A stretch of DNA of 64,000 nucleotides from Squalus acanthias (GCA_030390025.1 CM059432.1:19470001-19534000), one strand, 5' to 3'. Positions 9,262 through 63,499 are shown, numbered from the stretch's first letter. Notes: generated by a model not told the origin, from the letters alone. A program made the numbers and translations.

Positions 9262-9542
9262 CTGTTACTCTGTCCACAGATGCTACCTGACCTGCAAAGT
9301 GTTTGCAGAATGTTCTGTTTTTATTTCAGATTTCCAGCATCAGCACGGGCCCCTTGACATATCTCAACAGGCCCGTGCCAGTATTGACACATCCAGAGGA
9401 GCCTCTAGAAATCGTAACACTTTCCTGGGGACCCCCCCAGCCTAACTACTGTAATGATGCGGAGATGCCGGTGTTGGACTGGGGTGGACAAAAGTGAGAA
9501 GTCGCACAACACCAGGTTATAGTCCAACAGCTTTATTTGAAA

Positions 9543-9579
9543 TCACAAGCTTTCGGAGCGCTGCTCCTTCGTCAGGTGA
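9543..9579 (-). ncRNA. minimal type-I hammerhead ribozyme motif (family A), intact core
   Basis: Reverse complement: tcac-CTGACGA-a-ggagc agc gctcc-GAAA-gctt-gtga. Confidence 0.8.
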
Positions 9580-10271
9580 AGTGAAGAAATACATATGGGC
9601 ACAGCATATATAGTCAGAGAACACTGCCAGATGATTACAGTTAATCTTTCTAACTGCCCTTTATCACACCTCGGCAGAGAGACAATCACGGCAATCAAAG
9701 GTGTGGATGGTGTCCAACCAGGTCAGTCAGGAAAACATTACATCAAAGACGATAGCAAAATACAACAAAGACAATGAGGTGGGGTCACAAGGGGTCAAAT
9801 GTAGCAGCTGCTGGGGTCTGTATGGAAAACACATTTTTTTTTAACTTTTTTTTGCTGGAAATTACAGCAGGCCGCATTTGTGTAGAGAGAACAAGCCAGC
9901 GACGACTTGGATCTGGATGACTCTACGTCAGGTGGGGTCGAGTTGTCGCTGGCTTGTTCTCTCTGCACAAATGCGGCCTGCTGTAATTTCCAGCAAAAAA
10001 AGTTAAAAAAAAATTGTTTTCCATACAGACCCCAGCAGCTGCTACATTTGACCCCTTGTGACCCCACCTCATTGTCTTTGTTGTATTTTGCTATCGTCTT
10101 TGATGTAATGTCTTCCTGACTGACCTGGTTGGATTTGATTGCCGTGATTGTCTCTCTGCCGAGGTGTGATAAAGGGCAGTTAGAAAGATTAACTGTAGTC
10201 ATCTGGCATTGTTCTCTGCACAGGCATTGTTCTCTGTCTATATATGCTGTGCCCATTTGTATTTCTTCACT

Positions 10272-10308
10272 TCACCTGACGAAGGAGCAGCGCTCCCAAA
10301 GCTTGTGA
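10272..10308 (+). ncRNA. hammerhead motif (family A) with core mutation GAAA>CAAA
   Basis: tcac-CTGACGA-a-ggagcagcgctcc-cAAA-gctt-gtga. Confidence 0.65.
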
Positions 10309-10372
10309 TTTCAAATAAAGCTGTTGGACTATAACCTGGTGTTGTGCGACTTCTCACTTTTAACTACTGTAA

Positions 10373-22426: not shown

Positions 22427-23249
22427 TGAGTGTCTCCGCTTCCACCACTTCCGTCGGCAGCGAATTCTAAGTCATCACCACTCGCTGCATAAAAAAGTTT
22501 TTCCTCACATCCCCCCTGTATCTCTTGCCCAAAACCTTAAATCTGTGTCCCCTAGTCCTTGTACCATCAACTAATGGGAACAGCCTTTCCCCGTCTAGCC
22601 TATCCAAACCCATCATAATCTTGTACACCTCTATCAAATCACCCCACAACCTTCTTTGCTCTAATGAAAACAAATCCAGCTTCTCCAACCTGTCCTTGTA
22701 GCTAAGATCCCCCATCCCCGGAACCATTCTGGTAAATCTCCTCTGCACCCTCTCAAGGGCCTTCACATCTTTCCTAAAGTGTGGTGACCAGAACTGGACG
22801 CAATACTCCAGTTGTGGCCTAACCAGCGCTTTATAAAGGTTCAGCATAACTTCTCTACTTTTGTACTCAATACCTCTATTTATGAAGCCCAAGATCCCAT
22901 ATGCTTTGTTAACCACTCTCTCAATACGTCCTGCCACCTTCAGGGACCTATGCACATTAACTCCCAGGTCTCTCTGTCCCTGCACACTCTATAAAACTGT
23001 GCCATTAAGTGTATATTGTCTCTCCCTATTCCTTCTGCCAAAATGCATCACCTCACACTTCTCTGTATTAAATTCCATCTGCCACTTGTCTGCCCATTCT
23101 ATGTCCTGTTGCAGTCGATTGGTATCATCATCACTGTTTGCCACACCCCCAAGTTTGGTGTCATTGGCAAATTTAGAAATTCTACTCTGTATTCCAATAT
23201 CCAGGTCATTTACATATATATCAAGAAAAGCTTCAAAACCCATTTTTGA

Positions 23250-24925: not shown

Positions 24926-25273
24926 TGTCTGTCTTTCCAGTTTTAAAAAAAAACACAAAAAAAAAACCCAAAAAAGGTTAAAAGCTCAACTGCAGACAGC
25001 AGGATTTGACACGTTGGACCCCTGTGACCCATCTCATTGTCTTGGCTGTGCTCTGGTGTGTCTTTGATGTAATGCCTCCCTGAAAGAGTGTATCTCTGCA
25101 GTTTCGGTGTTTATATACTGTGTAATATTGTAGATTCCCTCATTGTACCTCTACCTGACGAAGGGGCAACAGCTCCGAAAGCTTGTAACTTTAAATAAAT
25201 CTGTTGGACTATAACCTGGTGTTGTGCGACTTCTCATTTTTGCCCACCCCAGTCCAACACCGGCATCTCCGCA
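24926..25273 (+). mobile_element. solo Penelope pLTR (family A, subtype 2)
   Basis: Ends ...ccggcatctccgca; TSD tctttgaaaggt at 24914-24925 and 25274-25285; homologous to the reverse complement of 37063-37425. Confidence 0.9.
25152..25187 (+). ncRNA. minimal hammerhead ribozyme motif with covarying stems
   Basis: tac-CTGACGA-a-ggggc aaca gctcc-GAAA-gctt-gta (stem I tac/gta versus cac/gtg in other copies). Confidence 0.78.
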
Positions 25274-27652
25274 TCTTTGAAAGGTGTCGTGGGGATCTTT
25301 TGCTTCCATTCGAGGGGGCAGAGAGGGCCTTTGTTTAACTTCTCATGCAAAACACTGACACCTCCCGCAGCACAGCACTCCCTCAGCATTACACTGACTG
25401 ATGTGTCAGCCTCGATAATGTGCTCAAGTTCTCTGGAGTGGAGCTTGAACCCACAACCTTCTGACTAACAGTCAAGTCTGAAACTGGCTCAGACAAAGTT
25501 TTACAGCCTCTTTGAAGGAAAGATAAAGGAAATATTCACGATAATACAAAGCCTGACATTTCCAATGTAAGGAGCAGAGGTCTGAAAAACTTATCTTTGT
25601 GCAATGCCGCTTAGTCTATTCAGCAAGTGAGATCAGTAGAGGGGAAGGCATACAACAGCGAGGGTCAGGTGCCCTTTTTATGCTAAATATAAGCGGCATG
25701 GAGCTAAGTCGCATGGAGCAACTTATATTTCTATCGCACACCTCGTGTCGAGAGAGATCATTGAGTGCTTTCTGTGGTGGAGGAAAGCTTTGCTCCTTAA
25801 ACATGTCTGTATCAAATTCCTTGGGCCTTGTTTTATTTTCCTTGCATGTGCCTCCCCCCGTTGTGCCACTGCTACTTTCATGGGGCTGAGCCTCAGCACC
25901 TCCCCCAGCCCCCGCCCACTGCTCTGCCTGTGAGCTGAGTGACACGAATATCTCAAAGCCTCTTTCCATAGACTCCCTCGTAGCTTTAAAGCCGAGGAGA
26001 TTCCAGCAGTCTGAGTTCCCAGCGAAGCTGTCACTAGAGGCTCCTATGCTGGAGGCCTCCTCTCTGCAGTGTTCACAGAGCTGACCGCTTTTATGTTATG
26101 AGCTATTACAACTTTGTTGGGCATTGCTTCCTTCAGTTTGGTTATCGTTTCAAACATTTGCTTGTTTTGGCATTCATTATTTTTAAAGCCCACGCATGCA
26201 GTCGTTAGCCCTGCACAAAGTTCATCTTTGAGATAATTAATTCAGCTGCCTAAGAGTCCATACACTGTGACCTTTATTGTTTCTCCGTACCTCGGATTAA
26301 ACCGGCTGGATTACAGTTACTTTCCCATTTCATTTTTCTTTAGCATTTTAGCCAGCTGGCCACTCATCGGTTAGAACAACGACCCCCTTTGCAGTGAGCC
26401 CATGCTCACTGTTCCCCACTGGCTTTAACAATGGGGTGGGAATCAGATGTATTTTATATCTCCTCTTGCATCAATGGGGTGTTTTAAATCTGCATAACTC
26501 CGAGAAAACTCAGCGATTGCAAGTTCAAATTGGCAGCTTTATAGTGCGGAATGTTCCTGTTCATATTCAGATCTTGTCTATTTCGGTCCGGTTCGGCAAT
26601 TTCATTCACTAACGACCTTCAACCTCCAACTTAATCTCCAATTAAGATGACAGGCATTTGTGTGATTCCATTTTTGTTCTGCTTTGTAGTGTGTTAGTTT
26701 ATTTTTCTTTACTTTTTTTAAACAAGGGTTTTACAACACAGACCTGTTGTACCTTATCCTGTGTCCATGTTGCGATTTTGTTAGCGGATTTTTTGACAGT
26801 TTGGGTCAAGTGTGGGCACACACGCTGGCATAGCCATTAAATGAAATAAATCGCAAATTGAGTTGTGCAGCATACCCAGGGCTTAGTCCCTGAAAGTGAA
26901 CAGCAAGCTGATAGAGCAAGCTACACGGGCTATTTGTAGCCGATTAAATGGTGTCACCCGGATTAAACAGATGATGTGTGTCAAATAAATGAAAGGTGCT
27001 GGCTGCATAATTTATGCCGCAAGGTGACTGAGCCCTCCCTCAGCATCTGCAAAGCAAACACATTGCAGGAGAATGAATTCTCAGCTAAAAGTAATCCCTG
27101 GTATCATTTGTTGAAGTATGTGCTTAATCTCGGTGAGACAGAAGGAAAACCAACCACCTCTTGACATGAGTAATACAGGGAGATCTTATTTATTTAATTG
27201 TCTGTGCACAACAATCACAAGATCATTTGCAACTATGCAAGGACAGTATTTTTTTTTTTACATACCAGGACGCAACGCATAGATTCAGTTAGTGGCTGGA
27301 CAACACTTGTACGAGCAGGTGGGCAGAGGACACAGTTGTGTAGGTTTTTTGCCGAGAGCATTTTGATGAATTGGAAGTGCCGAGCTGCACGTCAATGCAG
27401 AAAATTGTCTCTGGATATCAACAACTTTAGCCACCTGGTGTGACTTTATTGGGCACAGACGAGGACCACTATTATTTTACAGAAAGACTCAAAAGGTCAG
27501 ACTTCAACATTTGGCAGCCAAAATGCATTGGCTCTGTCGATGTCACATCTGGTGAGAACATTGCTAATTATGCCACCCGAGTTAAAGAAGTCCTGCTTTG
27601 TGCCTCAATTTTCTCCCTCGTCTCCTGAAGCTTTTGTTGCTGGCTATACACA

Positions 27653-36285: not shown

Positions 36286-37152
36286 AATAAGTTTGTTAAA
36301 CCCAATTTCAATATGTTAATTAGATGGATCTCAAAGAGTTTCCTTAATAACTCACATTACTGTTAGCAAAGAATCAAGGCATTCTTGTATTCTTCCTCTG
36401 ATCTACGCAGCACCAGCTCTGACACAGAGAATTAAAAGATTCTGCACTACAATGCATCTATTGGAAAAGTTCCAATGCAATGATCTTTAAGCAGCCTAAG
36501 CTCTTCTTTGTCCCCAGTACTAACCCAACAAAACATTACACCTGCGAAAAGAAGGTTTCAGATAAGGGTATCGCAGAAACATGCAATGGCAATAGAAATA
36601 AATTCAGGTGATCACTTTGTAGAAGAACCCTATCTAATCTTGCCACCTTGTGTCCTTTAATCAAAAGTATCCATTCATAAACCATGGGACTTTGAGGCTT
36701 TGCCGCTTTTGTGTGATGACAGCACAAAAAGAATACAACAAACCATAATCCATATTTGGAGATATGCAATGACCTTATTTCAGAGAGTTGCTTTACTTCC
36801 AGCAGTGCTTCAACTTTTTCTTACTTGATCCCTGTCTGTGAAGACTGTTAGAAAACAAGCAAGGAAAACGCCTAACTGAAGTGAATGACATGAATGTAAG
36901 TGACGATCGAAAAATATCTCGCTCTTAGAATGAGAGAGAAAAAGAGACGGTGCTTAACAAGATAATATCAAGACTTGCAGCAGGTGTGTTTATAATGCCT
37001 TTTGTGATTCTGAATCAAAGTACTGCATCATGACAAACCCTCTAACTAAATCAATGATGGTCATGATGCGGAGATGCCGGCGTTGGACTGGGGTGGACAA
37101 AAATGAGAAGTCGCACAACACCAGGTTATAGTCCAACAGATTTATTTAAAAT

Positions 37153-37188
37153 TACAAGCTTTTGGAGCTGTCGCCCCTTCCTCAGGTA
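37153..37188 (-). ncRNA. hammerhead motif, core mutated (GAAA>AAAA)
   Basis: Reverse complement: tac-CTGAGGA-a-ggggcgacagctcc-aAAA-gctt-gta. Confidence 0.6.
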
Positions 37189-37434
37189 AAGTTACAATGA
37201 GTGAATCTACAATATTTCACAGTATATAAACACAGAAACTGCAGAGATACAATCTTTCAGGGAAGGTGTCCTTACATCAAAGACACACCAAGAGCACAGC
37301 CAAGACAATGAGATGTGTCACAGGGGGTCCAACGTGTCAAATCCTGCTGTCTGCAGTGTTTTTTGGGGGGGTTTTTGTGTTTGTTTTTTTGTGTTTTTTT
37401 TTTAAAAACTGGAAAGACAGACAACGATGTCGAG

Positions 37435-38380
37435 TCACGTTCTGTAGCGTGACATGAACCCGATATCCCTATTGAGGCCGTCCTCATGGGTGCGGAACTT
37501 GGCTGTCAGTTTCTGCTCAATGATTTTGCGTTGTCGTGTGTCTCGAAGGCCGCCTTGGAGAACGCTAACCCGCAGATCCGAGGCTGAATGTCCTTGACTG
37601 CTGAAGTGATCCCCGACTGGGAGGTAACAATCCTGCCTGGCGATTGTTGCGCGGTGTCCGTTCATATGTTGTCTCAGTGTCTGCATGGTCTCACCGATGT
37701 ACCATGCTCTGGGGCATCCTTTCCTGCAACGTATCAGGTAGACAACATTGGCCGAGTCATATGAGTATGTACCATGTACCTGGTGGGTAGTGTCCTCACG
37801 TGTGATGACGGTATCTGTGTTCATGATCTGGCATGTCTTGCAGAGGTTGCCGTGGCAGGGTTGTGTGGTGTCGTGGTCGCTGTTCTCCTGACAGCTGAGT
37901 AATTTGCTGCGAACGATGGTACTTTTGAGGTTAGGCAGCTGCTTGAAGGCGAGTAGTGGAGGCGTGGGGATGGCCTTAGCAAGGTGTTCGTCGTCATCGA
38001 TGACATGTTGAAGGCTGCGAAGAGCATGGCGTAGTTTCTCTGCTCTGGGGAAGTACTGGACGACGTAGGGTACTCTGTTGGTTGTGTCCCGTGTTCGCCT
38101 TCTGAGGAGGTTTATGCGGTTTTTCGCTGTGGCCCGTCGGAACTGTCGATCGATGAGTCGAGCGTCATATCCCGTTCTTACGAGGGCGTCTTTCAGTGTC
38201 CGTAGGTGTCCACCGCGTTCCTCCTCGTCTGAGCAGATCCTGTGTATTCGCAGGGCTTGTCCACAGGGGATGGCTTCTTTAACGTGGTTAGGGTGGAAGC
38301 TGGAGAAGTGGAGCATCGTGAGGTTGTCCGTGAGCTTGCGGTAGAGTGAAGTGCTGAGGCGTCCGTCTTTGATGAGGCGT
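37435..38380 (-). pseudogene. 5'-truncated Penelope ORF (RT thumb, Cys linker, GIY-YIG)
   Basis: IKDGRLSTSLYRK...PCHGNLCKTC...NVVYLIRC..WYIGET...GLNRD; closely similar to the intact ORF. Confidence 0.9.
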
Positions 38381-38926
38381 CCAAATTCGCACCCCAATAC
38401 GCCAACATCTTCATGCACAAGTTCGAGCAAGACTTCTTCGCTGCACAGGACCTCCAACCAACGTTGTACACCAGATACATCGACGACATCTTCTTCCTTT
38501 GGACCCACGGCAAAGGATCACTTTTTTTGCTGGAAATCACCGCATCTGTGTAGAGAGAACAAGCCAACGACGACTCGAGTCTCGCTACATGTAACCCCAC
38601 CTGATGTAGAGTCATCCAGACTCGAGTCGTCGTTGGCTTGTTCTCTCTACACAGATGCAGCCGGACCTGCTGTGATTTCCAGCAAAATAAGTTTTTTGTT
38701 TTCCATACAGACCCCAGCATCTGCCACATTTGACCCCTTGTGACCCCACCTCATTGTCTTTGATGTAATGTTTTCCTGACTGACCTGTTTGGACACCATC
38801 CACACCTTTGATTGCCGTGATTATCTCTCTGCCGAGGTGTGATAAAGGGCAGTTAGAAAGATTAACTGTAATCATCTGGCAGTGTTCTCTGTCTATATAT
38901 GCTGTGCCTATATGCATCTCTTCACT

Positions 38927-38963
38927 TCACCTGACAAAGGAGCAGCGCTCCGAAAGCTTGTGA
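38927..38963 (+). ncRNA. hammerhead motif, core mutated (CTGACGA>CTGACAA)
   Basis: tcac-CTGACaA-a-ggagcagcgctcc-GAAA-gctt-gtga. Confidence 0.6.
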
Positions 38964-39144
38964 TTTCAAATAAAGCTGTTGGACTATAACCTGGTGTTGT
39001 GCGACTTCTCACATTTGTCAACTGGTAGGGATTAGGACAAATCGAAAGGCTAACTCTCAGATAAAAGTATAGGGAGTAAACAAGGAATTTTAAGAAATTA
39101 ATCAATATTCATGGTTTTCCATGAGTCGCGAGGTCAAAATGCTG

Positions 39145-44973: not shown

Positions 44974-45572
44974 AATATTAGCAAACAACAATGTAGAACA
45001 GCAATGGGAAACATTTAAAACAGTGTTCAACAGAGTGAAGGAACAATATTTTCCACTAAAAGGAAAGAACAAACGAAACACTAATGAGACTCCATGGATG
45101 AATAAAGCCATAAGGGAACAATTGAGGGTAAGGAAAGAGGCATACATTAAGTACATGGAAAGCATGATAAGGGAGAATATGAAGAGATTAGGAGAGAAGT
45201 CAAAAAAACAATTCGGAAGGCAAAGAGGAACTATGAAATTCAATTATCAGGGAACATAAAACAAAATAACAACACAACAACAGCAACTTGTATTTATATA
45301 GCACCTTTAATGTAGTAAAACGTCCAAAGGCGCTGCACAGGAGTATTTTAAGACAAAAATTTGTCACCGAGCCACATAAGGATAAATTAGCGCAGGTGAC
45401 CAAAAGCTTGGTCAAAGAGCTAGGTTTTAAGGAGCGTCTTAAAGGAGGAAAGAGAGGTAGGTAGCGAGGAGGAGAGGTTTAGGCAGGGAATTCCAGAGCT
45501 TAGGCCATCAAAGGTTGACAAATGTGAGAAGTCGCACAACACCAGGTTATAGTCCAACAGCTTTATTTGAAA

Positions 45573-45609
45573 TCACAAGCTTTCGGAGCGCTGCTCCTTC
45601 GTCAGGTGA
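45573..45609 (-). ncRNA. minimal hammerhead ribozyme motif, intact
   Basis: Reverse complement: tcac-CTGACGA-a-ggagcagcgctcc-GAAA-gctt-gtga. Confidence 0.8.
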
Positions 45610-45611
45610 AG

Positions 45612-45648
45612 TCACCTGACAAAGGAGCAGCGCTCCGAAAGCTTCTGA
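45612..45648 (+). ncRNA. hammerhead motif with two mutations
   Basis: tcac-CTGACaA-a-ggagcagcgctcc-GAAA-gctt-ctga. Confidence 0.6.
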
Positions 45649-48600
45649 TTTCAAATAAAGCTGTTGGACTATAACCTGGTGTTGTGCGACTTCTCACATT
45701 TGTCCACCCCAGTCCAACACCGGCATCTCCACATCACATCAAAGGTTGAGCGATTATAATCAGGGATGCTCAAGAGGGCAGAATTAGAGGAGCGCAGATA
45801 TCTCGGGTGGTGGGGGGGTGTTGTGGGGCTGAAGGAGATTACAGAGATAGGAAGGGGCGAGGTCATGGAGGGACTTGAAAACAAGGATGAGAATTTTGAA
45901 ATTGAGGCGCTGCTTAACTGGGAGCCAATGTAGGTTAGCGAGCACAGGGGAGATGGGCGAACGGGACTTGGTGCGAGTTAGGACGTGGGCAGCCGACTTT
46001 TGGATGACCTCAAGTTTACGTAGGGTAGAATGTGGGAGTCCAGCCAGGAGTGCATTGGAATAGTCAAGTCTAGAGGTAACAAAGGCATGGATGAGGATTT
46101 CAAAAGCGGATGAGCTGAGGCAAAGGCGGAGACGGGCGATGTTACGGAGGTGGAAGAAGGCGGTCTTTGTTATGCTGCGGATATGTGGTCGGAAGCTCAT
46201 TTCAGGGTCAAATATGACACCAAGGTTGCGAACAGTGTGGTTCAGCCTCAGACAGATGTTAGGGAGAGGGATGGAGTTAGTGGCTAGGGAACGGAGTTTG
46301 TGGCGGGGACTGAAAACAATGGCTTTGGTCTTCCCAATATTTAATTGGAGAAAATTTTTGCTCACCCAGAACTATATGTCGGACAAGCAGTCTGACAACT
46401 TAGACACCGTGGAGGGGTCGAGAGAAGAGATAGTGAGGTAGTGCTGGGTGCTGTCAGCGTACATGTGAAAACCGATGCTGTGTTTTCGGATGATGTTGCC
46501 AAGGGGCAACATGTAGATGAGAAATAGGAGGGTGCCAAGGATAGATCCTTGGGGGACACCAGAGGTAACGATGCGGGAGCGGGAAGAGAAGCCGTTGCAG
46601 GTGATTCTCTGGTTATGATTAGATAGATAAGAAATAGTAAAATATTTTACAGGCACATCAATAAAAAAAGGAAGGGTGGGATGGGAATAGGGCCATTAAG
46701 GGATAGACAGAATAATACCACAGGTAATAATAGAGAGATGGCAGAAATATTAAATAATTATTTTGCTTCAGTATTTACCAGGGAGATAGAACAGGTGGAC
46801 ATGACATTGGATGATGAGATTAGTAATGAGATAAGTATAATTAAAATAAAAAGAGGGGATATATTAAATAAACTAATCAAACTCAAAGAGGAGAAAACCC
46901 CTGGTCTGGATGGATTGCATCCATACATTTAAAAAGAATCTAGGGAAGAGATAGCAGAGGCATTACTACATATATTTAATAATTCGTTAGAAAAAGGTGT
47001 AGTGCCAGAGGACTGGTGGATAGCTAATTTAATACCTATATTCAAGAAAGGGGATAAAACATGTCCAGGGAATTATAGACCAGTCAGCTTAACATCGGTG
47101 GTAGGAAAAATAATGGAATCCCTACTAAAGGAGAAAATAGAAGAACATCTAGAAAATAAAAATATAATAAGGAATAGTCAGCATGGAGTTCAAAAGGGAA
47201 AGTCTTGCTTGACCAACCTCATTGAATTTTTTGAAGAGGTAACAGAGAGAGTAGACAATGGTAATGCAGTCGATGTAATTTATCTAGATTTTCAAAAGGC
47301 CTTCGATAAGGTACCACATAAAAGACTGATGAACAAGGTCAGAGAATGCGGAGTCAGGGGACAAGTAGCAGAATGGATAGCTAGCTGGCTTCAAGACAGA
47401 AAGCAGAGAGTAGGGGTAAAAGATAACCATTCACAGTGGCAGAAGGTGGGTAGTGGTGTTCCACAAGGATCAGTGCTGGGATCACTGTTGTTCACAATTT
47501 ACATTAACGATTTAGACTTTGGAATCAAAAACACAATTTCTAAATTTGCAGATGACACCAAATTGGGGGGATAGTCAATACTGAGGAGGACTGCAACAAA
47601 TTGCAGGAGGACATTAATAACTTGCAGAATGGGCATATAATTGGCAAATGAAATTCAACACAGATAAGTGTGAGGTATTACATTTTGATAGGAAGAATAG
47701 GGAGGTCACTTATTACTTGGAGGGTGCGAGTCTAGGTGGGGTAAAGGAACAGAGAGATCTCAGAGTACAAGTACACAAATCACTTAAAGTTGCGACACAG
47801 GTTAGCAAGGCCATTAAAAAAAGCAAACCAAGCACTAGGGTTTATTTCTAGAGGGATAGAATTGAAAAGTAGGGAAGTTATGCTAAACTTGTATCGAACC
47901 TTGGTTCGACCACACTTAGAGTACTGTGTACAGTTCTGGTTGCCATATTATAAAAAGGATATAAAGGCACTGGAGAGGGTGCAGAGAAGATTTACAAGGA
48001 TCATACCAGAAATGTGAGGGTATACGTATCAGAAAAGGATGATGAACAGGCGAGGTCTCTTTTCTCTTGAAAAAAGAAGGCTGAGGGGTGACTTAATAGA
48101 TGTCTTTAAAATTATGAAAGGTTTTGATAGAGTGGATACAGAGAGAATGTTTCCACTTGTGAGGAAGAGCATAACTAAAGGCCATCAATATAAGATAGTC
48201 ACCAAGAAATCCAATAGGGAATTCAGAAGAAACTTCTTTACCCAGAGAGTGGTGAGAATGTGGAACTCGCTACTACAGGGAGTCGTTGAAGTGAATAGTA
48301 TAGATGCATTTAAGGGGAGGCTAGACAAGCATATGAGGGAGAAGGGAATAGAGGATTATGCTGTTAGAGTTAGATGAGGAAAGACGGGAGCAGGCTCGTG
48401 TGGAGCATAAACGCTGGCATGGACTGGTTGGGCCGATGGCCTGTTTCTGTGCCGTATATCCTATGTAATCCTATGTAATATCTCTACAAGATCACCTCTC
48501 AGATGCCTCCTTGCCAGGCTAAAAAGCCCAAGTTTCTCCATAACTTATACCCTTGGGATCATCTTTGTGGCTTTTCTCTACACTCTCTTTTGCACTTGAA

Positions 48601-52995: not shown

Positions 52996-53773
52996 CTTTA
53001 CAACTTGCCTGCTGTTAGATTTCAAAGTTCCTTTCCCTGGCTAGAAAGTAAGAGATAGCAAAGGACAGTGATGGAGGAAAGAAGGGATATATTTGTAACA
53101 GAGAACCTTCAGTAGAATCATAAAATCATAGATTAGTACAGCACAGAAGAGGCCATTTGGCCCATTGAGTCTGTGCCGGCTCTTTCGAAGAGCAATCCAG
53201 TTAGTCGCACTCCCCCGCTCTTTTTTCTCCTTCAAGTATTTATCCAATTCGCTTTTGAAGGCTACTATTGAATCTGTATCCACTACCCGATCAGGCAGTG
53301 CACTCCAAACCCTAACCACTCGTTGCATTAAAAAGTTTTTCCTCATGTCACCTCAGGTTCTTTGCCAATCACCTTAAATCTGTGCTCTCTGGTTATCAAC
53401 TCTTCAGCCATTGGAAACAGTTTATCTTTATATACTCTATCTAAACCCTTCATGATTTTAAACACCTCTATCATACCTCCACTCAGCCTTCTCTGTTCTA
53501 AGGAGAACAACCCTAGCTTCTCCAGTCTATCCACGTAACTGTATTCCCTCATCCCTAGAACCGTTCTAGTAAATCTCTTCTGTACCCTCTCCAAAGCCTT
53601 CACGTCCTTCCTAAAGTGTGTTGCACAGAATGAGACACAATACACCAGCTGGGACTGAACTAGTGTTTTCTATAGGTTCAGCATAACTGCCTGGCTCTTT
53701 TTTACTCTGCCTCTTTTTATAAAATTGAGAGGTCGCACAACACCAGGTTATAGTCCAACAGTTTTATTTGAAA

Positions 53774-53811
53774 TCACAAGCTTTCGGAGCTATCGCTCCT
53801 TCCTCAGGTGA
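53774..53811 (-). ncRNA. minimal type-I hammerhead ribozyme motif (inverted arm)
   Basis: Reverse complement: tcac-CTGAGGA-a-ggagc gata gctcc-GAAA-gctt-gtga. Confidence 0.8.
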
Positions 53812-54149
53812 AGTAAATTGGATACAGAATCGTCAGAGCATATATAGATGGAAAAAAAAGCATGTGTACTTTACAATTGCAGACCAATAAATTAAATCAT
53901 CCTGACTATCTGCCGAGGTGTGATAAAGTTAATTAAGTCAGCCAGGAAGGTACCACATCAAAAGACATAGCAAGATACAACTGAGACAATGAGGTGAAGT
54001 CGCAGGGGTTCTAACGTGTCAAAAGCTGCCGTCTGTATGTAAAACGAAAAGCTTAAAAAAAAAAAAAATTTACTTTTTTACTGGGAAAATTTTTACTTTT
54101 TTACTGGGAATCACATCTGTGAACAAGCTAACGACGACTCGAGTCCGGA

Positions 54150-55745
54150 TCACGTCATGTATCGTGACATAAACCCAAGATCCCGATTGAGACCGTCTTC
54201 ATGAGTGCAGAACTTGGCTATCAGTTTCTGCTCGATGATTTTGCGTTGTCGTGTGTTTCTAAGGTTGCCTTGGAGAACGCTTACCCGCAGATCCGAGGCT
54301 GAATGTCCTTGACTGCTGAAGTGTTCCCCGACTGGGAGGTAACAATCCTGCCTGGCGATTGTTGCGCGGTGCTCGTTCATACGTTGTCTCAGTGTCTGCA
54401 TGGTCTCGCCGATGTACCATGCCGCGGTGCATTCTTTCCTGCAACGTATGAGGTAGACAACGTTGGCCGAGTCACATGAGTATGTACCATGTACCTGGTG
54501 GGTAGTGTCCTCACGTGTGATGGTGGTATCTGTGTTGATGATCTGGCATGTCTTGCAGAGTTTGCCATGGCAGGGTTGTGTGGTGTCGTGGTCGCTGTTA
54601 TCCTGAAAGCTGGGTAATTTGCTGCGAACGATGGTACTTCTGAGGTTAGGCGGCTGTTTGAAGGCAAGTAGTGGAGGCGTGGGGATGGCCTTAGCGAGGT
54701 GTTTGTCGTCATCGATGACATGTTGAAGGCTGCGAAGAACATGTCGTAGTTTCTCCGCTCCGGGGAAGTACTGGACGACGTAGGGTACCCTGTTGGTTGT
54801 GTCCCGTGTTTGCCTTCTGAGGAGGTCTATGCGATTTTTCGCTGTGGCCCGTCGGAACTGTCGATCGATGAGTCGAGCGTCATATCCCGTTCTTACGAGG
54901 GCGTTTTTCAGCGTCCGTAGGTGTCCATCGCGTTCCTCCTCGTCTGAGCAGATCCTGTGTATTCGCAGGGCTTGTCCATAGGGGATGGCTTCTTTAACAT
55001 GGTTAGGGTGGAAGCTGGAGAAGTGGAGCATCGTGAGGTTGTCCGTGGGCTTGCGGTAGAGTGAAGTGCTGAGGTGTCCGTCTTTGATGGAGATTCGTGT
55101 GTCCAGGAATGAGACCGATTCTGAGGAGTAGTCCATGGTGAGTTTGATGGTGGGATGGAACTTGTTTATGTTATCGTGTAGTCTTTTCAGTGATCCTTCG
55201 CCATGGGTCCAAAGGAAGAAAATGTCGTCGATGTATCTGGTGTACAGCGTTGGCTGGAGGTCCTGTGCAGCGAAGAAGTCTTGCTCGAACTTGTGCATGA
55301 AGATGTTGGCGTATTGGGGTGCGAATTTGGTCCCCATGGCTGTTCCGTGTGTTTGGGTAAAAAAATGGTTGTCGAAGGCGAAGACATTGTGGTCAAGGAT
55401 GAAGCGGATGAGTTGTAGGATGGCGTCTGGAGATTGGCTGTTGTTGATGTTGAGTACTGAGGCTGTTGCAGCGATGCCGTCATCGTGGGGGATACTGGTG
55501 TAGAGTGCCGATACGTCCATCGTGGCAAGGAGTGTTCCTGGTTCAACTGGTCCGTGGGTGCTGAGTTTCTGTAAGAAGTCTGTAGTGTCGCGACAGAAGC
55601 TGGGGGTTCCCTGTACGATGGGTTTCAGAATGCCCTCGACGTATCCAGAGAGGTTCTCACACAGGGTTCCATTGCCTGATACGATAGGACGTCCGGGTGT
55701 GTTGGCTTTGTGTATCTTTGGGAGGCAGTAGAAGTCTCCCACGCG
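54150..55745 (-). pseudogene. 5'-truncated inverted copy of the Penelope ORF (RT core to GIY-YIG), frame open
   Basis: 530 aa identical to the C-terminus of the intact ORF except T>A in HNVF(T/A)FD; no native start codon. Confidence 0.9.
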
Positions 55746-56160
55746 TAAAAAAGTAAAAATTTTCCCAGTAAAAAAGTAAATTTTTTTTTTTTTAAGCTTT
55801 TCGTTTTACATACAGACGGCAGCTTTTGACACGTTAGAACCCCTGCGACTTCACCTCATTGTCTCAGTTGTATCTTGCTATGTCTTTTGATGTGGTACCT
55901 TCCTGGCTGACTTAATTAACTTTATCACACCTCGGCAGATAGTCAGGATGATTTAATTTATTGGTCTGCAATTGTAAAGTACACATGCTTTTTTTTCCAT
56001 CTATATATGCTCTGACGATTCTGTATCCAATTTACTTCACCTGAGGAAGGAGCGATAGTTCCGAAAGCTTGTGATTTCAAATAAAACTGTTGGACTATAA
56101 CCTGGTGTTGTGCGACCTCTCAATTTTGTCCACCCCAGTCCAACACCGGCATCTCCGCAT
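55745..56160 (+). repeat. 5' pseudo-LTR of Penelope
   Basis: Direct repeat of 58886-59300; contains the hammerhead and AATAAA (~56080); ends at the ATG. Confidence 0.93.
56037..56074 (+). ncRNA. minimal type-I hammerhead ribozyme motif (5' pLTR)
   Basis: tcac-CTGAGGA-a-ggagc gata gttcc-GAAA-gctt-gtga; predicted cut after 56070. Confidence 0.8.
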
Positions 56161-56161
56161 C

Positions 56162-58840
56162 ATGACCACTATCGACACCACAAACTGCCGGCTCAAAGTG
56201 GAGAGAATCGCCAAGAAGATCGCGCATATCGACACCGACATCAAGTATCTACAGAGATGCAAGAAAGCAGACAAGATCCCGAAAGGACTACAGATCACGA
56301 ACCCACTCAAGTCGACATACAACACAGACTACGCTGAGAGACTCTGCCGTCGTACCTCTCGCACACTCCTCAACCATCTCGTACACCAGCTCTACAGCAA
56401 ACGCCACAACCTCGAAACCAAGATAGAGTCCATGCTCTCAGCCTGTGCTCAGGACACAGCAGACCAGTTACGAGACACCACCAAACAGACGAGGCAACGG
56501 AACTACGCTGCCTACATGCGCATCAAGAACAGGAAGCTTGAGAAACTCGGCATCACCACCAGCAGCAACCAAGCCTCCCCCGGTACCACGGCTGCAACCA
56601 CAGGGAAGTCCATCGTCAACTTGTCCGACCATACCCTTCAACCAGACGAAATCGAAGTTCTCGCCCTAGGGCTCAAGTTCTGCCCAACCACCAAAATGGA
56701 CCCCATCGGTCTCGCGGCAGACACGGAGGAATTCATCAGGAGAATGAGGCTCCGGGAATACTTCCACAAATCCCAAGATGTCAGCAACAAACCCAATGAG
56801 ACAATCAATGATCCAGAACAGCAGACAGAGGGACTCGCAGTGCAGCAACCGAAGAAAAAAGAGTCAAACTGGACCCCTCCGGAGGGTCGCTGCCCCAAGC
56901 TTGACATGTATGCTCAAGCTGTCAGGAAATGCATCAACGCCAGATTCATCAGCCGCACTCACAAGACAGTCCAGAATGTCACCCGAGCACAACGCAACGC
57001 CATCCACGCTCTCAAGACCAACCGCAACATTGTCATCAAACCAGCGGACAAAGGAGGAGCCATCGTCATACAGAACAGAACGGACTATTGTAAAGAAGCA
57101 TACCGACAACTGGACAACCAGGAACACTACAGACAGCTACCCGCAGATCCGACCAAAGAACACACCCGCCAACTCAATAGACTGATCAAGACCTTCGATC
57201 CAGACCTTCAAAACATCCTACGCGCTCTCATCCCACGTACTCCCCGCGTGGGAGACTTCTACTGCCTCCCAAAGATACACAAAGCCAACACACCCGGACG
57301 TCCTATCGTATCAGGCAATGGAACCCTGTGTGAGAACCTCTCTGGATACGTCGAGGGCATTCTGAAACCCATCGTACAGGGAACCCCCAGCTTCTGTCGC
57401 GACACTACAGACTTCTTACAGAAACTCAGCACCCACGGACCAGTTGAACCAGGAACACTCCTTGCCACGATGGACGTATCGGCACTCTACACCAGTATCC
57501 CCCACGATGACGGCATCGCTGCAACAGCCTCAGTACTCAACATCAACAACAGCCAATCTCCAGACGCCATCCTACAACTCATCCGCTTCATCCTTGACCA
57601 CAATGTCTTCACCTTCGACAACCATTTTTTTACCCAAACACACGGAACAGCCATGGGGACCAAATTCGCACCCCAATACGCCAACATCTTCATGCACAAG
57701 TTCGAGCAAGACTTCTTCGCTGCACAGGACCTCCAGCCAACGCTGTACACCAGATACATCGACGACATTTTCTTCCTTTGGACCCATGGCGAAGGATCAC
57801 TGAAAAGACTACACGATAACATAAACAAGTTCCATCCCACCATCAAACTCACCATGGACTACTCCTCAGAATCGGTCTCATTCCTGGACACACGAATCTC
57901 CATCAAAGACGGACACCTCAGCACTTCACTCTACCGCAAGCCCACGGACAACCTCACGATGCTCCACTTCTCCAGCTTCCACCCTAACCATGTTAAAGAA
58001 GCCATCCCCTATGGACAAGCCCTGCGAATACACAGGATCTGCTCAGACGAGGAGGAACGCGATGGACACCTACGGACGCTGAAAAACGCCCTCGTAAGAA
58101 CGGGATATGACGCTCGACTCATCGATCGACAGTTCCGACGGGCCACAGCGAAAAATCGCATAGACCTCCTCAGAAGGCAAACACGGGACACAACCAACAG
58201 GGTACCCTACGTCGTCCAGTACTTCCCCGGAGCGGAGAAACTACGACATGTTCTTCGCAGCCTTCAACATGTCATCGATGACGACAAACACCTCGCTAAG
58301 GCCATCCCCACGCCTCCACTACTTGCCTTCAAACAGCCGCCTAACCTCAGAAGTACCATCGTTCGCAGCAAATTACCCAGCTTTCAGGATAACAGCGACC
58401 ACGACACCACACAACCCTGCCATGGCAAACTCTGCAAGACATGCCAGATCATCAACACAGATACCACCATCACACGTGAGGACACTACCCACCAGGTACA
58501 TGGTACATACTCATGTGACTCGGCCAACGTTGTCTACCTCATACGTTGCAGGAAAGAATGCACCGCGGCATGGTACATCGGCGAGACCATGCAGACACTG
58601 AGACAACGTATGAACGAGCACCGCGCAACAATCGCCAGGCAGGATTGTTACCTCCCAGTCGGGGAACACTTCAGCAGTCAAGGACATTCAGCCTCGGATC
58701 TGCGGGTAAGCGTTCTCCAAGGCAACCTTAGAAACACACGACAACGCAAAATCATCGAGCAGAAACTGATAGCCAAGTTCTGCACTCATGAAGACGGTCT
58801 CAATCGGGATCTTGGGTTTATGTCACGATACATGACGTGA
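56162..58840 (+). CDS. Penelope-like (Neptune clade) polyprotein: reverse transcriptase + Cys-rich linker + GIY-YIG endonuclease, 892 aa
   Basis: First ATG at 56162; IKPADKGGAIV, LPKIHK..PGRPIVS, TMDVSALYTSIP, GTAMGTKFAP, RYIDD, FLD; PCHGKLCKTC linker; VVYLIRC..WYIGET..R..EH..HF..E..GLN; no stops. Confidence 0.96.
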   Translation: MTTIDTTNCRLKVERIAKKIAHIDTDIKYLQRCKKADKIPKGLQITNPLKSTYNTDYAERLCRRTSRTLLNHLVHQLYSKRHNLETKIESMLSACAQDTADQLRDTTKQTRQRNYAAYMRIKNRKLEKLGITTSSNQASPGTTAATTGKSIVNLSDHTLQPDEIEVLALGLKFCPTTKMDPIGLAADTEEFIRRMRLREYFHKSQDVSNKPNETINDPEQQTEGLAVQQPKKKESNWTPPEGRCPKLDMYAQAVRKCINARFISRTHKTVQNVTRAQRNAIHALKTNRNIVIKPADKGGAIVIQNRTDYCKEAYRQLDNQEHYRQLPADPTKEHTRQLNRLIKTFDPDLQNILRALIPRTPRVGDFYCLPKIHKANTPGRPIVSGNGTLCENLSGYVEGILKPIVQGTPSFCRDTTDFLQKLSTHGPVEPGTLLATMDVSALYTSIPHDDGIAATASVLNINNSQSPDAILQLIRFILDHNVFTFDNHFFTQTHGTAMGTKFAPQYANIFMHKFEQDFFAAQDLQPTLYTRYIDDIFFLWTHGEGSLKRLHDNINKFHPTIKLTMDYSSESVSFLDTRISIKDGHLSTSLYRKPTDNLTMLHFSSFHPNHVKEAIPYGQALRIHRICSDEEERDGHLRTLKNALVRTGYDARLIDRQFRRATAKNRIDLLRRQTRDTTNRVPYVVQYFPGAEKLRHVLRSLQHVIDDDKHLAKAIPTPPLLAFKQPPNLRSTIVRSKLPSFQDNSDHDTTQPCHGKLCKTCQIINTDTTITREDTTHQVHGTYSCDSANVVYLIRCRKECTAAWYIGETMQTLRQRMNEHRATIARQDCYLPVGEHFSSQGHSASDLRVSVLQGNLRNTRQRKIIEQKLIAKFCTHEDGLNRDLGFMSRYMT

Positions 58841-58885
58841 TCCGGACTCGAGTCGTCGTTAGCTTGTTCACAGATGTGATTCCCA

Positions 58886-59300
58886 GTAAAAAAGTAAAAA
58901 TTTTCCCAGTAAAAAAGTAAATTTTTTTTTTTTTAAGCTTTTCGTTTTACATACAGACGGCAGCTTTTGACACGTTAGAACCCCTGCGACTTCACCTCAT
59001 TGTCTCAGTTGTATCTTGCTATGTCTTTTGATGTGGTACCTTCCTGGCTGACTTAATTAACTTTATCACACCTCGGCAGATAGTCAGGATGATTTAATTT
59101 ATTGGTCTGCAATTGTAAAGTACACATGCTTTTTTTTCCATCTATATATGCTCTGACGATTCTGTATCCAATTTACTTCACCTGAGGAAGGAGCGATAGT
59201 TCCGAAAGCTTGTGATTTCAAATAAAACTGTTGGACTATAACCTGGTGTTGTGCGACCTCTCAATTTTGTCCACCCCAGTCCAACACCGGCATCTCCGCA
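58886..59300 (+). repeat. 3' pseudo-LTR of Penelope
   Basis: No difference seen from 55745-56160. Confidence 0.93.
59178..59215 (+). ncRNA. minimal type-I hammerhead ribozyme motif (3' pLTR)
   Basis: Identical to 56037-56074; predicted cut after 59211. Confidence 0.8.
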
Positions 59301-60268
59301 TCTTTTTATAAAGCCCAGGATCCCATATGCTTTATTAACTGCTTTGTTAACCTGTCCTGCCACCTTCAAAGATTTATGCACAATCACCCCCAAGTCTTTC
59401 TGTTCTTGCACACCCTTTAATATTGCACCATTTAGCACGCATTGTCTCTCCTCATTCTTCCTACCAAAACATATCACCTCACACTTTTCTGCGCTGAATT
59501 TCATCTGCCATATGTCCAACCATTCCACCAGCCTGTCTATGTCCTTTTGAAGTCTATTACTATCTTTCTCACTGTTTACTACACTTCCAAGTTTCGTGTC
59601 ATCCGCAAATTTAAAATTTGTGCCCTGTACCAAGTCCAAGTCATTAATATATATCAAAAACAGCAGTGGTCCTAGTAGTGAACCCTGCAGAACACCATTG
59701 TATACCTCCCTCCAGTCCAAAAAACAGCCATTCAGCACAAATCTGTTTTCTATCCTTTAGCCAATTTTGTATCCATGCTGCTACTGCCCCTGTTATCCTA
59801 CAGGCTCAATTTTACTAACAAGTCTAATATGTGGTACTTTATCAAATACCTTTTGAAAGTCCATATACACAATATCAACTGCACTGCCCTCATCCACCCT
59901 TTCTATTACCTCATCAAAAAACTTAATCAAGTTAGTCAAACACGATTTGCCCTTAACAAATCCATTCTACCACTATGAATGTTGGGATAGCTCATTTATA
60001 TAAGGCTCAATTGATTTTGCCAATTTGTTTCATATTCTCAAACTTCATTAGATCACCTTAAAGTCTCCTGTTTGAAAGAAAAAACAAACAAACCCAATGT
60101 CCTTAACTTGAGAGATCTAGCAGGTTTTATGACTCACTGAATCTGTTCAATCATGGAGGAGCAGCAATCAACAATGCAAATAAATACTGAACTATATAGG
60201 CAAAAAGAAAAAGTCCAAATCAAGGGAAGTCATGCTCAAAATATAGATCTCTCGTCAGCGTACACCTT

Positions 60269-60452
60269 GGATGTAATTTTGACTTGGGCGATAGTGTAAA
60301 ACAGGCGATAGCAAATTGTGCTAGCAAATTACTCTCCTGATTTTCATTTCCACTAAAGTCAATTCAAAATGAAAAGCAGGAGAGCAGTAAAATGGATTGC
60401 CGATTCCCTATTTCCCCTTTTACACTATCGCCCAAAGTCAAAATTACCCCCC
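60269..60452. mobile_element. palindromic MITE (Harbinger-like ends) inserted in an old CR1 (~60190-60920, +)
   Basis: gtaattttgact-tgggcgatagtgtaaaa / ttttacactatcgcccaaagtcaaaattac; flanking ctt duplication. Confidence 0.8.
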
Positions 60453-62149: not shown

Positions 62150-63499
62150 GGCTCGATTTTAAACTCGGGTTCAAATTGGGCGGACGGGCAGGATGGAGTG
62201 GAAGTCCCCATGATGTTGTCATTGTGAGTTTCACTCCCAGGCCTTATTACCATTTCAATGCTGGCCTGTCCTCCCGATCACGTAGAGAATCGTGGCAGCC
62301 CGCCCACCTGCCGCGCACAACTTTCGCTGCGACTCCCGAGGCCTATTTAAAGCGAGGGTGCACCTCTTGAGGCGTGGTTGCATTCCCTATGTTGATTTTT
62401 GCTGGAAGAGCACTGGAAAAGATTGCGAGACCTTGCTGCATGAAAATTGGCTGCTACGTTTCCAAGTTATAACAGTGACTGCACTTCAAAAAGTACCTAA
62501 TTGGATGTAAAGTGCTTTGGGAAGTCCTGAGGTTGTGAAAGGTGCTATATAAATACAAGTTCCTTCGTCTAACCTAAGCAGAGTAAGACGCCCTGGTGAT
62601 CAGTGACCCAAGCAGAGCCATCAGCATCAGGGAAGATAAGGCTTACCAGAGCAGGGTGTGTGCATATTACTTGTAATCCTTCATTCATCTCAGAAAATGA
62701 AGTTCAAGTTGTATTCTCAAGACAATCACCTGCAAACATCCAGTTTCCAGCTGCTATCCTAACTCTTGTCCCTTTTCTCTTTCAAGAAGAACTTCGGTGG
62801 TGGGCAATCCTCCTGCGGATACACTGTCACGTGCTGCATTCCTCCCAGACACCAGATCAGATACTGACACTCCGCGCTGGTTAGATAGTGAGCCAGAGGA
62901 GCCTGCATGTATTGAAACACCCAGCACCATTGAGCAGCTGCAGGTACTGGTGGCGGAGATACCACAGGAGACGGCTTGCTGGAGGGTAAGGTCCTCTTCC
63001 AGCACTGCTAAGGCAGACAGAGATGAGGGCTTCAGGGACACAGCCATGAAAAGCAAACTTCTGGCATCACACAAGGAGCTTCATGAGGCAGTGGAAGGTC
63101 TGCCAAGGAGTTTCACCACTATGGCTGAAAGTGTGGAGGAGTCCGATTCCAGCTCGAGTGGTGTCATCTTGCATGGCATTAGCACTCTGCAGTTTACTTT
63201 GGAGAGTGTGGTCACCTCAAGGGATGCTGCGGCTGGGCCCTCACAACAGGAGTCCATGTTCATACGCTTGGCAGCTTTGGTGGAAGCTCTAACAGCTGCC
63301 ATGCAAATTCTGGCCTCCACACTTCAGGGACATCGGAGCATGACTTTTACATTTCAATGGGGCCCTTGCCTGCCTGTGGTGGCCACCTCTCCCATGACCA
63401 AAGACAGCACAGGTGGGAACGTGCAGGAAGCGTAGCAGGAAGTGCCGGACCGCCATTTTAACCTACCTCATTCCCGCCGGGCAAGGTTAAAATCAGCCC
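62150..63499 (+). mobile_element. Harbinger deletion derivative retaining a Myb-partner last-exon remnant (62797-63435) and a SINE tail (62440-62560)
   Basis: Ends ggctcgattttaa / ttaaaatcagccc; DEGFRDTAMKSKLLASHKEL..LPRSFTTMAESVEESDS aligns with DEDLNEEAFRRRVLGMHTEM..VPERLSAMVRSVEESAS. Confidence 0.65.

What the first reader, a model, noticed from the sequence alone, without database searches (positions are those of the whole stretch)
56037..59215. Twin minimal hammerhead ribozymes bracket the ORF and could release a 3141-nt unit RNA
Seen: identical CUGAGGA-stemII-GAAA-GCUU motifs closed by tcac/gtga in both pLTRs, exactly 3141 nt apart, with stem III reduced to the palindrome AAGCUU. Known: minimal type-I hammerheads occur in PLE pLTRs and are proposed to act as dimers through the palindrome. 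Inference: the two copies could pair in cis and cut after 56070 and 59211, giving a monomer with 5'UTR, ORF and 3'UTR that could circularise.
Basis: partly seen in the sequence, partly recalled or inferred. Interest (0 to 1): 0.72.

Follow-up and report, generated by a model that had tools for sequence, protein, structure and literature searches.

The report
Penelope retroelement with known twin hammerheads
The two predicted self-cutting RNA motifs are really there, but they are the standard duplicated ends of a young, intact Penelope-type jumping gene, and the idea that they would release a circular RNA is a published, still untested proposal that the insertion ends in this region neither prove nor require.

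Summary
Observation confirmed: identical minimal type-I hammerheads at 56037-56074 and 59178-59215, with predicted cuts after 56070 and 59211, 3141 nt apart, inside 417-nt identical pLTRs around an intact 892-aa RT + GIY-YIG ORF (Neptune/Nematis motifs). Stems hold in 79 of 81 cells across 9 window copies, with one compensatory pair. All of this is described for Penelope-like elements, including the cut-ligate-circle model (PMC4209133). The linear 3141-nt monomer cannot be the direct template: 9 of 9 copy 3' ends in the window lie +57-64 or +91-98 nt past the cut, 0 of 9 at it, and read-set contigs agree. That leaves uncut RNA (tandem transcript or template jumps; favoured, about 0.6) or a ligated circle (about 0.28). 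No informative RNA reads were available. Small extras: a TATA-like box would start the transcript just 5' of the ribozyme, and the two arms differ at three sites, hinting at two RNA templates. The scan noted similar cases before, in this and other genomes.

The parts
53712..53723 (+). Left target-site duplication (12 bp), in a CR1-like LINE
   Evidence: Same 12 letters at 59301-59312; both flanks align end to end with other uninterrupted LINE copies in the window at 6449-6752 and 22723-23031; right flank has an RVT_1 hit. The label CR1-like is recalled.
53721..55745 (-). Inverted, 5'-truncated arm (3' part of ORF plus pLTR), ending at the short site +57 nt after the predicted cut
   Evidence: 2025 columns, 99.85% identical to 57245-59268; 3 differences
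53774..53811 (-). Third hammerhead, stem II with G-C where the two direct copies have G.U
55745..56161 (+). 5' pLTR (partial upstream copy), 417 nt
   Evidence: 100% identical to 58886-59302
56002..56008 (+). TATA-like box 39 nt upstream of the hammerhead core; predicted transcription start near 56034
   Evidence: TATAWA 37-43 nt upstream of the core in 3 of 3 subfamily representatives examined; start site inferred from recalled TATA/initiator spacing, not measured
56037..56074 (+). Minimal type-I hammerhead, 5' copy; predicted cut after 56070
56080..56085 (+). AATAAA 10 nt after the predicted cut (twin at 59221-59226), possible poly(A) signal
   Evidence: invariant in 9 of 9 aligned rows; function untested
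56104..56236 (+). Predicted long hairpin across the pLTR-ORF junction; both copy-end sites fall inside it, the long one in an AC-rich loop
   Evidence: weak, z = -1.53, 13 of 200 shuffles fold as well; no covariation test possible
56162..58840 (+). Intact 892-aa ORF: RT (DKG, motifs A, B, YIDD), CX4CxxC linker, GIY-YIG endonuclease with CCHH
   Evidence: (RVT_1, E 1.4e-08)
58886..59302 (+). 3' pLTR including the 34-nt tail (59269-59302); ends at the long site +91
59178..59215 (+). Minimal type-I hammerhead, 3' copy; predicted cut after 59211
59301..59312 (+). Right target-site duplication (12 bp)

Best explanation
This is a very young, intact Penelope-like retroelement whose two identical hammerhead motifs come from its ordinary partial-tandem layout, and it was most likely copied into the genome from uncut RNA, with the element's enzyme likely starting at two fixed internal sites 57 and 91 bases downstream of the predicted ribozyme cut. 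Shown: the layout (inverted arm, pLTR, ORF, pLTR, tail, one TSD), the conserved pairing of the motif, and the two end sites. Inferred: the protein nicks both strands of an AT-rich target 12 bp apart and primes cDNA on both; one arm starts at the short site, the other at the long site; the more-than-unit length of the direct arm (3558 nt, 1.13 units) comes from a tandem transcript or from jumping back to the homologous 3' pLTR after running off the RNA's 5' end. The hammerhead is likely a real but slow ribozyme that needs a second copy and probably the element's protein; its cut would trim or uncap the transcript as a processing or control step rather than define the ends of what is inserted.
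For: 3' ends of 9 of 9 window copies lie at +57, +57, +60, +64 or +91, +91, +92, +93, +98; 0 of 9 at the cut. In contigs of public runs the best-supported downstream loose ends are at 56163-56169 and 56122-56129 (for example 68 and 54 contigs at 56163/56164 in X3; 62, 63 and 43 at 56163/56164/56122 in X1); none of the 24 rows shown of 435 is at 56070/56071 (same picture in 14 of 766 rows). This is the PLE tail, which PMC11167929 maps to two internal RT start sites; there ribozyme mutants did not affect insertion, cleavage needed protein, and no reads ended at the cut. Naiad PLEs lack canonical hammerheads yet have the same tandem, inverted and tail layout (PMC8557442 passages). The fold-back copy at 45513-45736 keeps both hammerheads whole and its arms begin 7 and about 4 nt upstream of the core, where the TATA-like box predicts the transcript start (one event). 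CUU is a poor triplet; minimal PLE hammerheads cleave weakly even as dimers. Pairing is kept in 79 of 81 cells, with one two-sided change in 2 rows.
Against: A circle explains the 1.13-unit arm with no jump, whereas a transcript starting near 56034 needs one or two jumps or a longer tandem donor, and no such donor could be looked for (no genome held). The two direct pLTRs share two states that the inverted arm lacks, as expected if one template pLTR was read twice. The anole data are in vitro and from another clade (Poseidon). The loose-end tables were cut to the best-supported rows, so minor ends at the cut are not excluded. An earlier AI note reports a fold-back starting at the cut in another genome (e1-9162017, unchecked).
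Confidence: 0.6

Rival explanations
1. Circle model (first reader; PMC4209133): the two hammerheads pair in cis, both cut, the 3141-nt unit is ligated (likely by a host RtcB-type ligase), and the RT starts at +91 and goes round 1.13 times, regenerating the pLTR and its promoter.
For: The cis double hammerhead is a nested structure in which the unit's two ends stay paired through stem I. The circle would hold one stem-III-less hammerhead and so would resist recutting (reasoning in PMC4209133). Direct pLTRs are 417/417 identical and share a G.U variant and a T13 run against G-C and T14 in the inverted arm. Related vertebrate retrozymes cleave better as dimers, are circularised by RtcB in vitro and are found as circles (PMC7229834 passages). 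The anole RT needs ORF sequence downstream of its start sites, which the 3' pLTR here lacks but a circle would have. [quoted passage not shown]
Against: No RNA evidence here: the one raw RNA run laid 0 reads. Ribozyme cutting was not needed for insertion in vitro. Hammerhead-less Naiads form the same layout. CUU triplet and a modelled 15.1 kcal/mol cost for the cis dimer. A tandem transcript or template jumps explain every point listed in favour.
Confidence: 0.28
2. The cut linear 3141-nt monomer is itself the template that is inserted.
For: It would contain the 91-nt 5' UTR, the ORF and the 3' UTR, with no upstream ATG.
Against: Copying starts 57-98 nt from its 5' end, so it would give only a stub; 0 of 9 window copies end at the cut; both arms here carry intact hammerheads with sequence on both sides of the cut.
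Confidence: 0.03
3. The motif is a non-cutting or vestigial structure, kept only as part of the protein-binding or promoter region.
For: Worst-class triplet; the segment after the cut is at least as conserved as the ribozyme; PMC4209133 does not rule out other functions.
Against: Core, stem II and stem I are kept with one compensatory and two one-sided changes while loop II varies; the anole PLE hammerhead cleaves with protein and responds to core mutations as expected.
Confidence: 0.09

Closest known systems
Minimal type-I hammerheads in pLTRs of metazoan Penelope-like elements (Cervera and de la Pena 2014, PMC4209133; parts 1-2 of 4 of the text read, plus a supplement search)
   Same: One motif per pLTR about 3 kb apart around an RT-EN ORF; short stem I, extra base before stem II, G10.1-C11.1 pair, palindromic positions 15.2-16.2, no stem III; found in Xena, Poseidon and Neptune elements of fishes; the same cut-ligate-circle model is proposed there.
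   Different: Stem II is 5 bp with a G.U; triplet CUU. Sharks were not named in the parts read or in the one supplement file searched (file 1 not searchable).
Neptune/Nematis-type EN+ PLEs with partial tandem, inverted arm and tail (PMC8557442 and PMC3846280, passages)
   Same: C-terminal GIY-YIG with CCHH, CX2-5CxxC linker, inverted 5'-truncated copy, 30-40-bp tail at one end only, TSD around the whole unit, TATA/Inr-like motifs in the pLTR (Adineta Pen2a).
   Different: No structural difference found; Neptune versus Nematis not separated (no tree built).
PAc, Poseidon element of Anolis carolinensis (PMC11167929; parts 1-2 of 4 read)
   Same: Two internal copy-end sites about 35 nt apart downstream of the hammerhead, AT-rich target, both strands extended.
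   Different: In PAc the ORF starts inside the hammerhead and the RT start sites lie in the ORF; here the hammerhead is 91 nt upstream of the ATG and the end sites lie in the 5' UTR and at the start codon. PAc's clade lacks the linker zinc finger.
Metazoan non-LTR retrozymes (PMC7229834 passages; bioRxiv 10.64898/2026.07.22.740005 part 1 and passages)
   Same: Tandem type-I hammerheads, dimer-dependent in vertebrates, related to pLTRs.
   Different: Non-coding 170-400-nt units with demonstrated circles; this is an autonomous 3141-nt unit for which no circle is shown.

Membership tests
EN+ Penelope-like element | Single ORF with RT and C-terminal GIY-YIG endonuclease | tested here: met
   892 aa; RVT_1 E 1.4e-08; DKG 295, YIDD 531-535, VVY 790 and WYIG 804. 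Pfam gave no GIY-YIG hit; that domain is called by motif.
EN+ Penelope-like element | CCHH motif, with two Cys between GIY and YIG | tested here: met
   Two Cys between VVY and YIG, His in RMNEH and GEHF; definition
EN+ Penelope-like element | Partial-tandem pLTRs, optional inverted arm, 30-40-bp tail, TSD | tested here: met
   417-nt pLTRs, 2025-nt inverted arm, 34-nt tail, 12-bp TSD
Neptune/Nematis clades | CX2-5CxxC linker between RT and EN | tested here: met
   CHGKLCKTC at residue 753
Neptune clade (versus Nematis) | RT phylogeny | not tested
   No named reference sequences were fetched; no tree built
Minimal type-I hammerhead | Core CUGANGA ... GAAA ... UH with stems I and II | tested here: met
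   97.5% of cells paired against 21-53% for slid controls; 14 of 500 shuffles as high (rows are related and the structure came from one of them)
Minimal type-I hammerhead | Palindromic stem III region allowing a dimer | tested here: met
   AGCU invariant in 9 of 9 rows; dimer modelled
Minimal type-I hammerhead | Self-cleavage | not testable with these tools
   Needs a bench assay; the only raw RNA run laid 0 reads
Rfam hammerhead families | Covariance-model match | tested here: not met
   No hammerhead family among 10 matches at E up to 10; a motif without stem III is expected to escape such models (inference)
Non-LTR retrozyme | Small non-coding tandem unit | tested here: not met
   Unit is 3141 nt and encodes an intact ORF
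Non-LTR retrozyme | Circular RNA in vivo | not testable with these tools
   Contigs cannot tell a circle from a tandem junction; no usable raw RNA reads

The most novel reading that the evidence does not exclude
One insertion, two RNAs: the palindromic hammerhead acts as a pairing module that brings two element RNAs (or circles) together on a dimeric protein; each primes one target strand, one at the short and one at the long start site. This would explain why the two arms differ at three sites (two of them with both direct pLTRs against the inverted arm) and why 4 of 4 double-ended insertions in the window pair one short end with one long end. In its strongest form the direct arm is a 1.13-turn copy of a 3141-nt protein-coding RNA circle.
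Probability: 0.15. Interest if true: 0.7.

Novelty: new member of a known kind. Interest (0 to 1): 0.25.

Why it matters
What the hammerhead does for Penelope-like elements, and how their pLTR is regenerated, are open questions (PMC2377424, PMC11167929). An intact, very young vertebrate Neptune-type copy with identical pLTRs is a convenient construct for testing them, and the end positions already rule out the simplest model (cut linear monomer as template). The motif, its position and the circle idea are themselves published, and the family is very abundant: 393 earlier notes in this genome fit the words hammerhead and Penelope.

Tried and rejected
Rfam scan: no hammerhead match. No own genome held, so no genome-wide end count. 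Metagenome scans: pattern scan 0 matches; protein scan 1 distant locus, L001, 28% over the endonuclease, not studied further. PDB sequence search: 0 matches. Raw RNA run X22: 0 reads laid, no test; raw DNA run X21: 42 reads from a distant relative. The RNA-labelled contig runs X8 and X10 are only guessed to be RNA, so they are not used as evidence of expression. The step in contig depth just after the cut site was considered as a footprint of cut RNAs and rejected: the upstream loose ends shown (56053, 56060) still read as hammerhead cores of subfamilies with another stem II. The junction hairpin is not significant against shuffles and could not be tested for covariation. Two 17-nt hits at E 0.6 were dropped before counting ends. 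Lunse et al. (dimer cleavage of PLE hammerheads) could not be read; it is known here only through the review PMC6765202 (passages). Paper searches for a demonstrated PLE circle listed none, but they cover only open-licence papers and I saw listings, not full texts, for most. Supplements of the bioRxiv preprint and file 1 of PMC4209133 were not seen and may list shark motifs.

Full report
Observation. At 56037-56074 there is UCAC, CUGAGGA, A, a five-pair stem II with a GAUA loop, GAAA, GCUU, GUGA, and the same 38 letters recur 3141 nt later. They lie in an exact 417-nt direct repeat, 55745-56161 and 58886-59302. The motif pattern has 6 matches in the window against 0.03 expected, 0 of 100 shuffles reaching 6. 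By hammerhead numbering (recalled) the cut falls after U56070 and U59211, triplet CUU. Rfam found no hammerhead family here.

What the locus is. Between the repeats lies an uninterrupted 892-aa ORF (56162-58840) with an RVT_1 hit, the RT motifs, a CX4CxxC linker and a GIY-YIG endonuclease with the CCHH motif. By the definitions in PMC8557442 (passages) this is an endonuclease-bearing Penelope-like element of Neptune/Nematis type; no tree was built. The insertion is larger than the finding: a 2025-nt inverted, 5'-truncated arm (53721-55745) abuts the 5' pLTR and carries a third hammerhead. One 12-bp target duplication (53712-53723, 59301-59312) flanks the whole, inside a LINE whose two halves align with uninterrupted copies elsewhere in the window. 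This is the standard layout (PMC8557442, PMC3846280; passages). That the host is a cartilaginous fish is my recall of such repeats plus earlier AI notes; I did not test it.

Is the ribozyme real? Nine window copies were aligned: the young 5' pLTR, the inverted arm and 7 older copies; the identical 3' pLTR was left out. Stems I and II pair in 79 of 81 cells; one stem I pair changes on both sides in 2 rows (C-G to U-A) and two stem II pairs change to G.U; slid controls give 21-53%, and 14 of 500 shuffles reach the observed value. The rows are related and few, so this is modest support, but it fits a conserved structure. AGCU, the part that would pair in a dimer, is invariant. The motif should be slow: no stem III as a monomer, CUU in the lowest triplet class (PMC8879150 passage), an isolated double hammerhead 4.9 kcal/mol above the best co-fold (-18.5 against -23.4), and a cis dimer 15.1 kcal/mol above the best fold of the 3269-nt RNA, against 5.3 for two separate folds (folds of this length are rough). 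Published minimal PLE hammerheads cleave weakly as dimers (PMC4209133); the anole one cleaves only with protein (PMC11167929).

What the ends say about the template. The direct arm ends 91 nt and the inverted arm 57 nt downstream of the predicted cut. All 9 copy ends in the window fall at +57, +57, +60, +64 or +91, +91, +92, +93, +98, none at the cut (offsets include microhomology). Four of 4 double-ended insertions pair one short and one long end; 3 of the 4 have a 12-13-bp TSD. Contigs from public runs of two coded organisms give the same picture: the best-supported downstream loose ends are at 56163-56169 and 56122-56129, and none of the 24 rows shown of 435 is at 56070/56071 (14 of 766 rows). 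This is the PLE tail, which PMC11167929 maps to two internal RT start sites. The template must have a whole unit upstream of a start site, so it is a tandem or read-through transcript, an RNA on which the RT jumps, or a circle.

Weighing uncut RNA against a circle. A TATA-like box lies 37-43 nt upstream of the core in 3 of 3 subfamily representatives (0.76% of random 16-nt windows hold one, but the three upstream regions are homologous, 56-61% identical in alignment, so not independent). It would start the transcript near 56034, just 5' of stem I, and an AATAAA follows the cut by 10 nt. If so, the 289 nt upstream of that start in the 5' pLTR were copied by a jump, from a longer tandem transcript, or round a circle; PMC2377424 notes that pLTR regeneration has no obvious mechanism (passages). 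For the circle: no jump is needed; the direct pLTRs share two states against the inverted arm; related retrozymes do form circles (PMC7229834 passages); and the model is in print (PMC4209133; review PMC6765202). For uncut RNA: in vitro insertion by the anole element is unaffected by ribozyme mutations and no reads end at its cut; Naiads have the same layout without canonical hammerheads; and the fold-back copy at 45513-45736 keeps both hammerheads whole, its arms beginning 7 and about 4 nt upstream of the core, as if the RT ran off an uncut 5' end (a single event). I put uncut RNA at about 0.6 and the circle at about 0.28. No RNA test was possible: the one raw RNA run laid 0 reads, and contigs cannot show ends or tell a circle from a tandem.

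A small extra. The arms differ at three sites in 2025 columns: 57611, a T run (13 against 14) and stem II position 59200. At the two sites where three copies can be compared, both direct pLTRs agree against the inverted arm, and the inverted arm's C is the state in 7 of 7 older window copies. Both letters appear to be present among family contigs (C in 209,400 of 622,084 summed depth in X3 and 12,370 of 13,916 in X8; not copy numbers). Random later mutation would hit the inverted arm both times in 1 of 9 cases and would have to restore the common state. The simplest reading is that the two arms were copied from two different RNA molecules; gene conversion is not excluded. This is one locus and a hint only.

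Verdict. Earlier notes of this scan reached similar readings on other DNA; they are unchecked and are not counted as support. Interest 0.25.

Noticed in passing
window 45513-45736: Fold-back mini-insertion with 13-bp TSD; two whole hammerheads head to head, arms starting 7 and about 4 nt upstream of the core, ends at +64 and +92.
   Followed up: partly
window 9453-10361: Older double-ended insertion of a sister subfamily: two inverted pLTR arms, 12-bp TSD, ends at +93 and +57.
   Followed up: partly
window 37058-39022: Composite older insertion: minus-strand ORF 3' part (94% identical to the young copy) with the pLTR of one subfamily at +98, and an opposite pLTR of a different subfamily ending at +60; no TSD found. 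The two arms are only 86% alike over 100 nt, a possible second case of arms from different RNAs, or two separate events.
   Followed up: partly
window 25142-25275: Single older pLTR of a third subfamily ending at +91, stem I changed.
   Followed up: partly
window 9229(+), 10463(-), 11339(+), 18464(-), 52091(+): Other CTGANGA-stem-GAAA motifs with a different stem II and downstream sequence; likely minimal hammerheads of a second, older PLE family.
   Followed up: no
window 55745-55794 and 58880-58935: A 23-nt tandem duplication followed by a T13 run at the start of the 3' UTR; the inversion junction falls at its start and reads as the palindrome ACGCGT.
   Followed up: no
window 53343-53720 and 59303-59900: The target is the 3' part of a CR1-like LINE RT region; an earlier AI note (e1-9922716) suggested a preference of this family for such LINE sites. 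Not tested.
   Followed up: no
window 60284-60435: Imperfect inverted repeat (33-nt arms, 82%) with weak, sub-threshold miRNA-model matches; probably a MITE-like element.
   Followed up: no
window 62797-63435: 212-aa plus-strand ORF, possibly part of a Harbinger-type element (recalled resemblance only).
   Followed up: no
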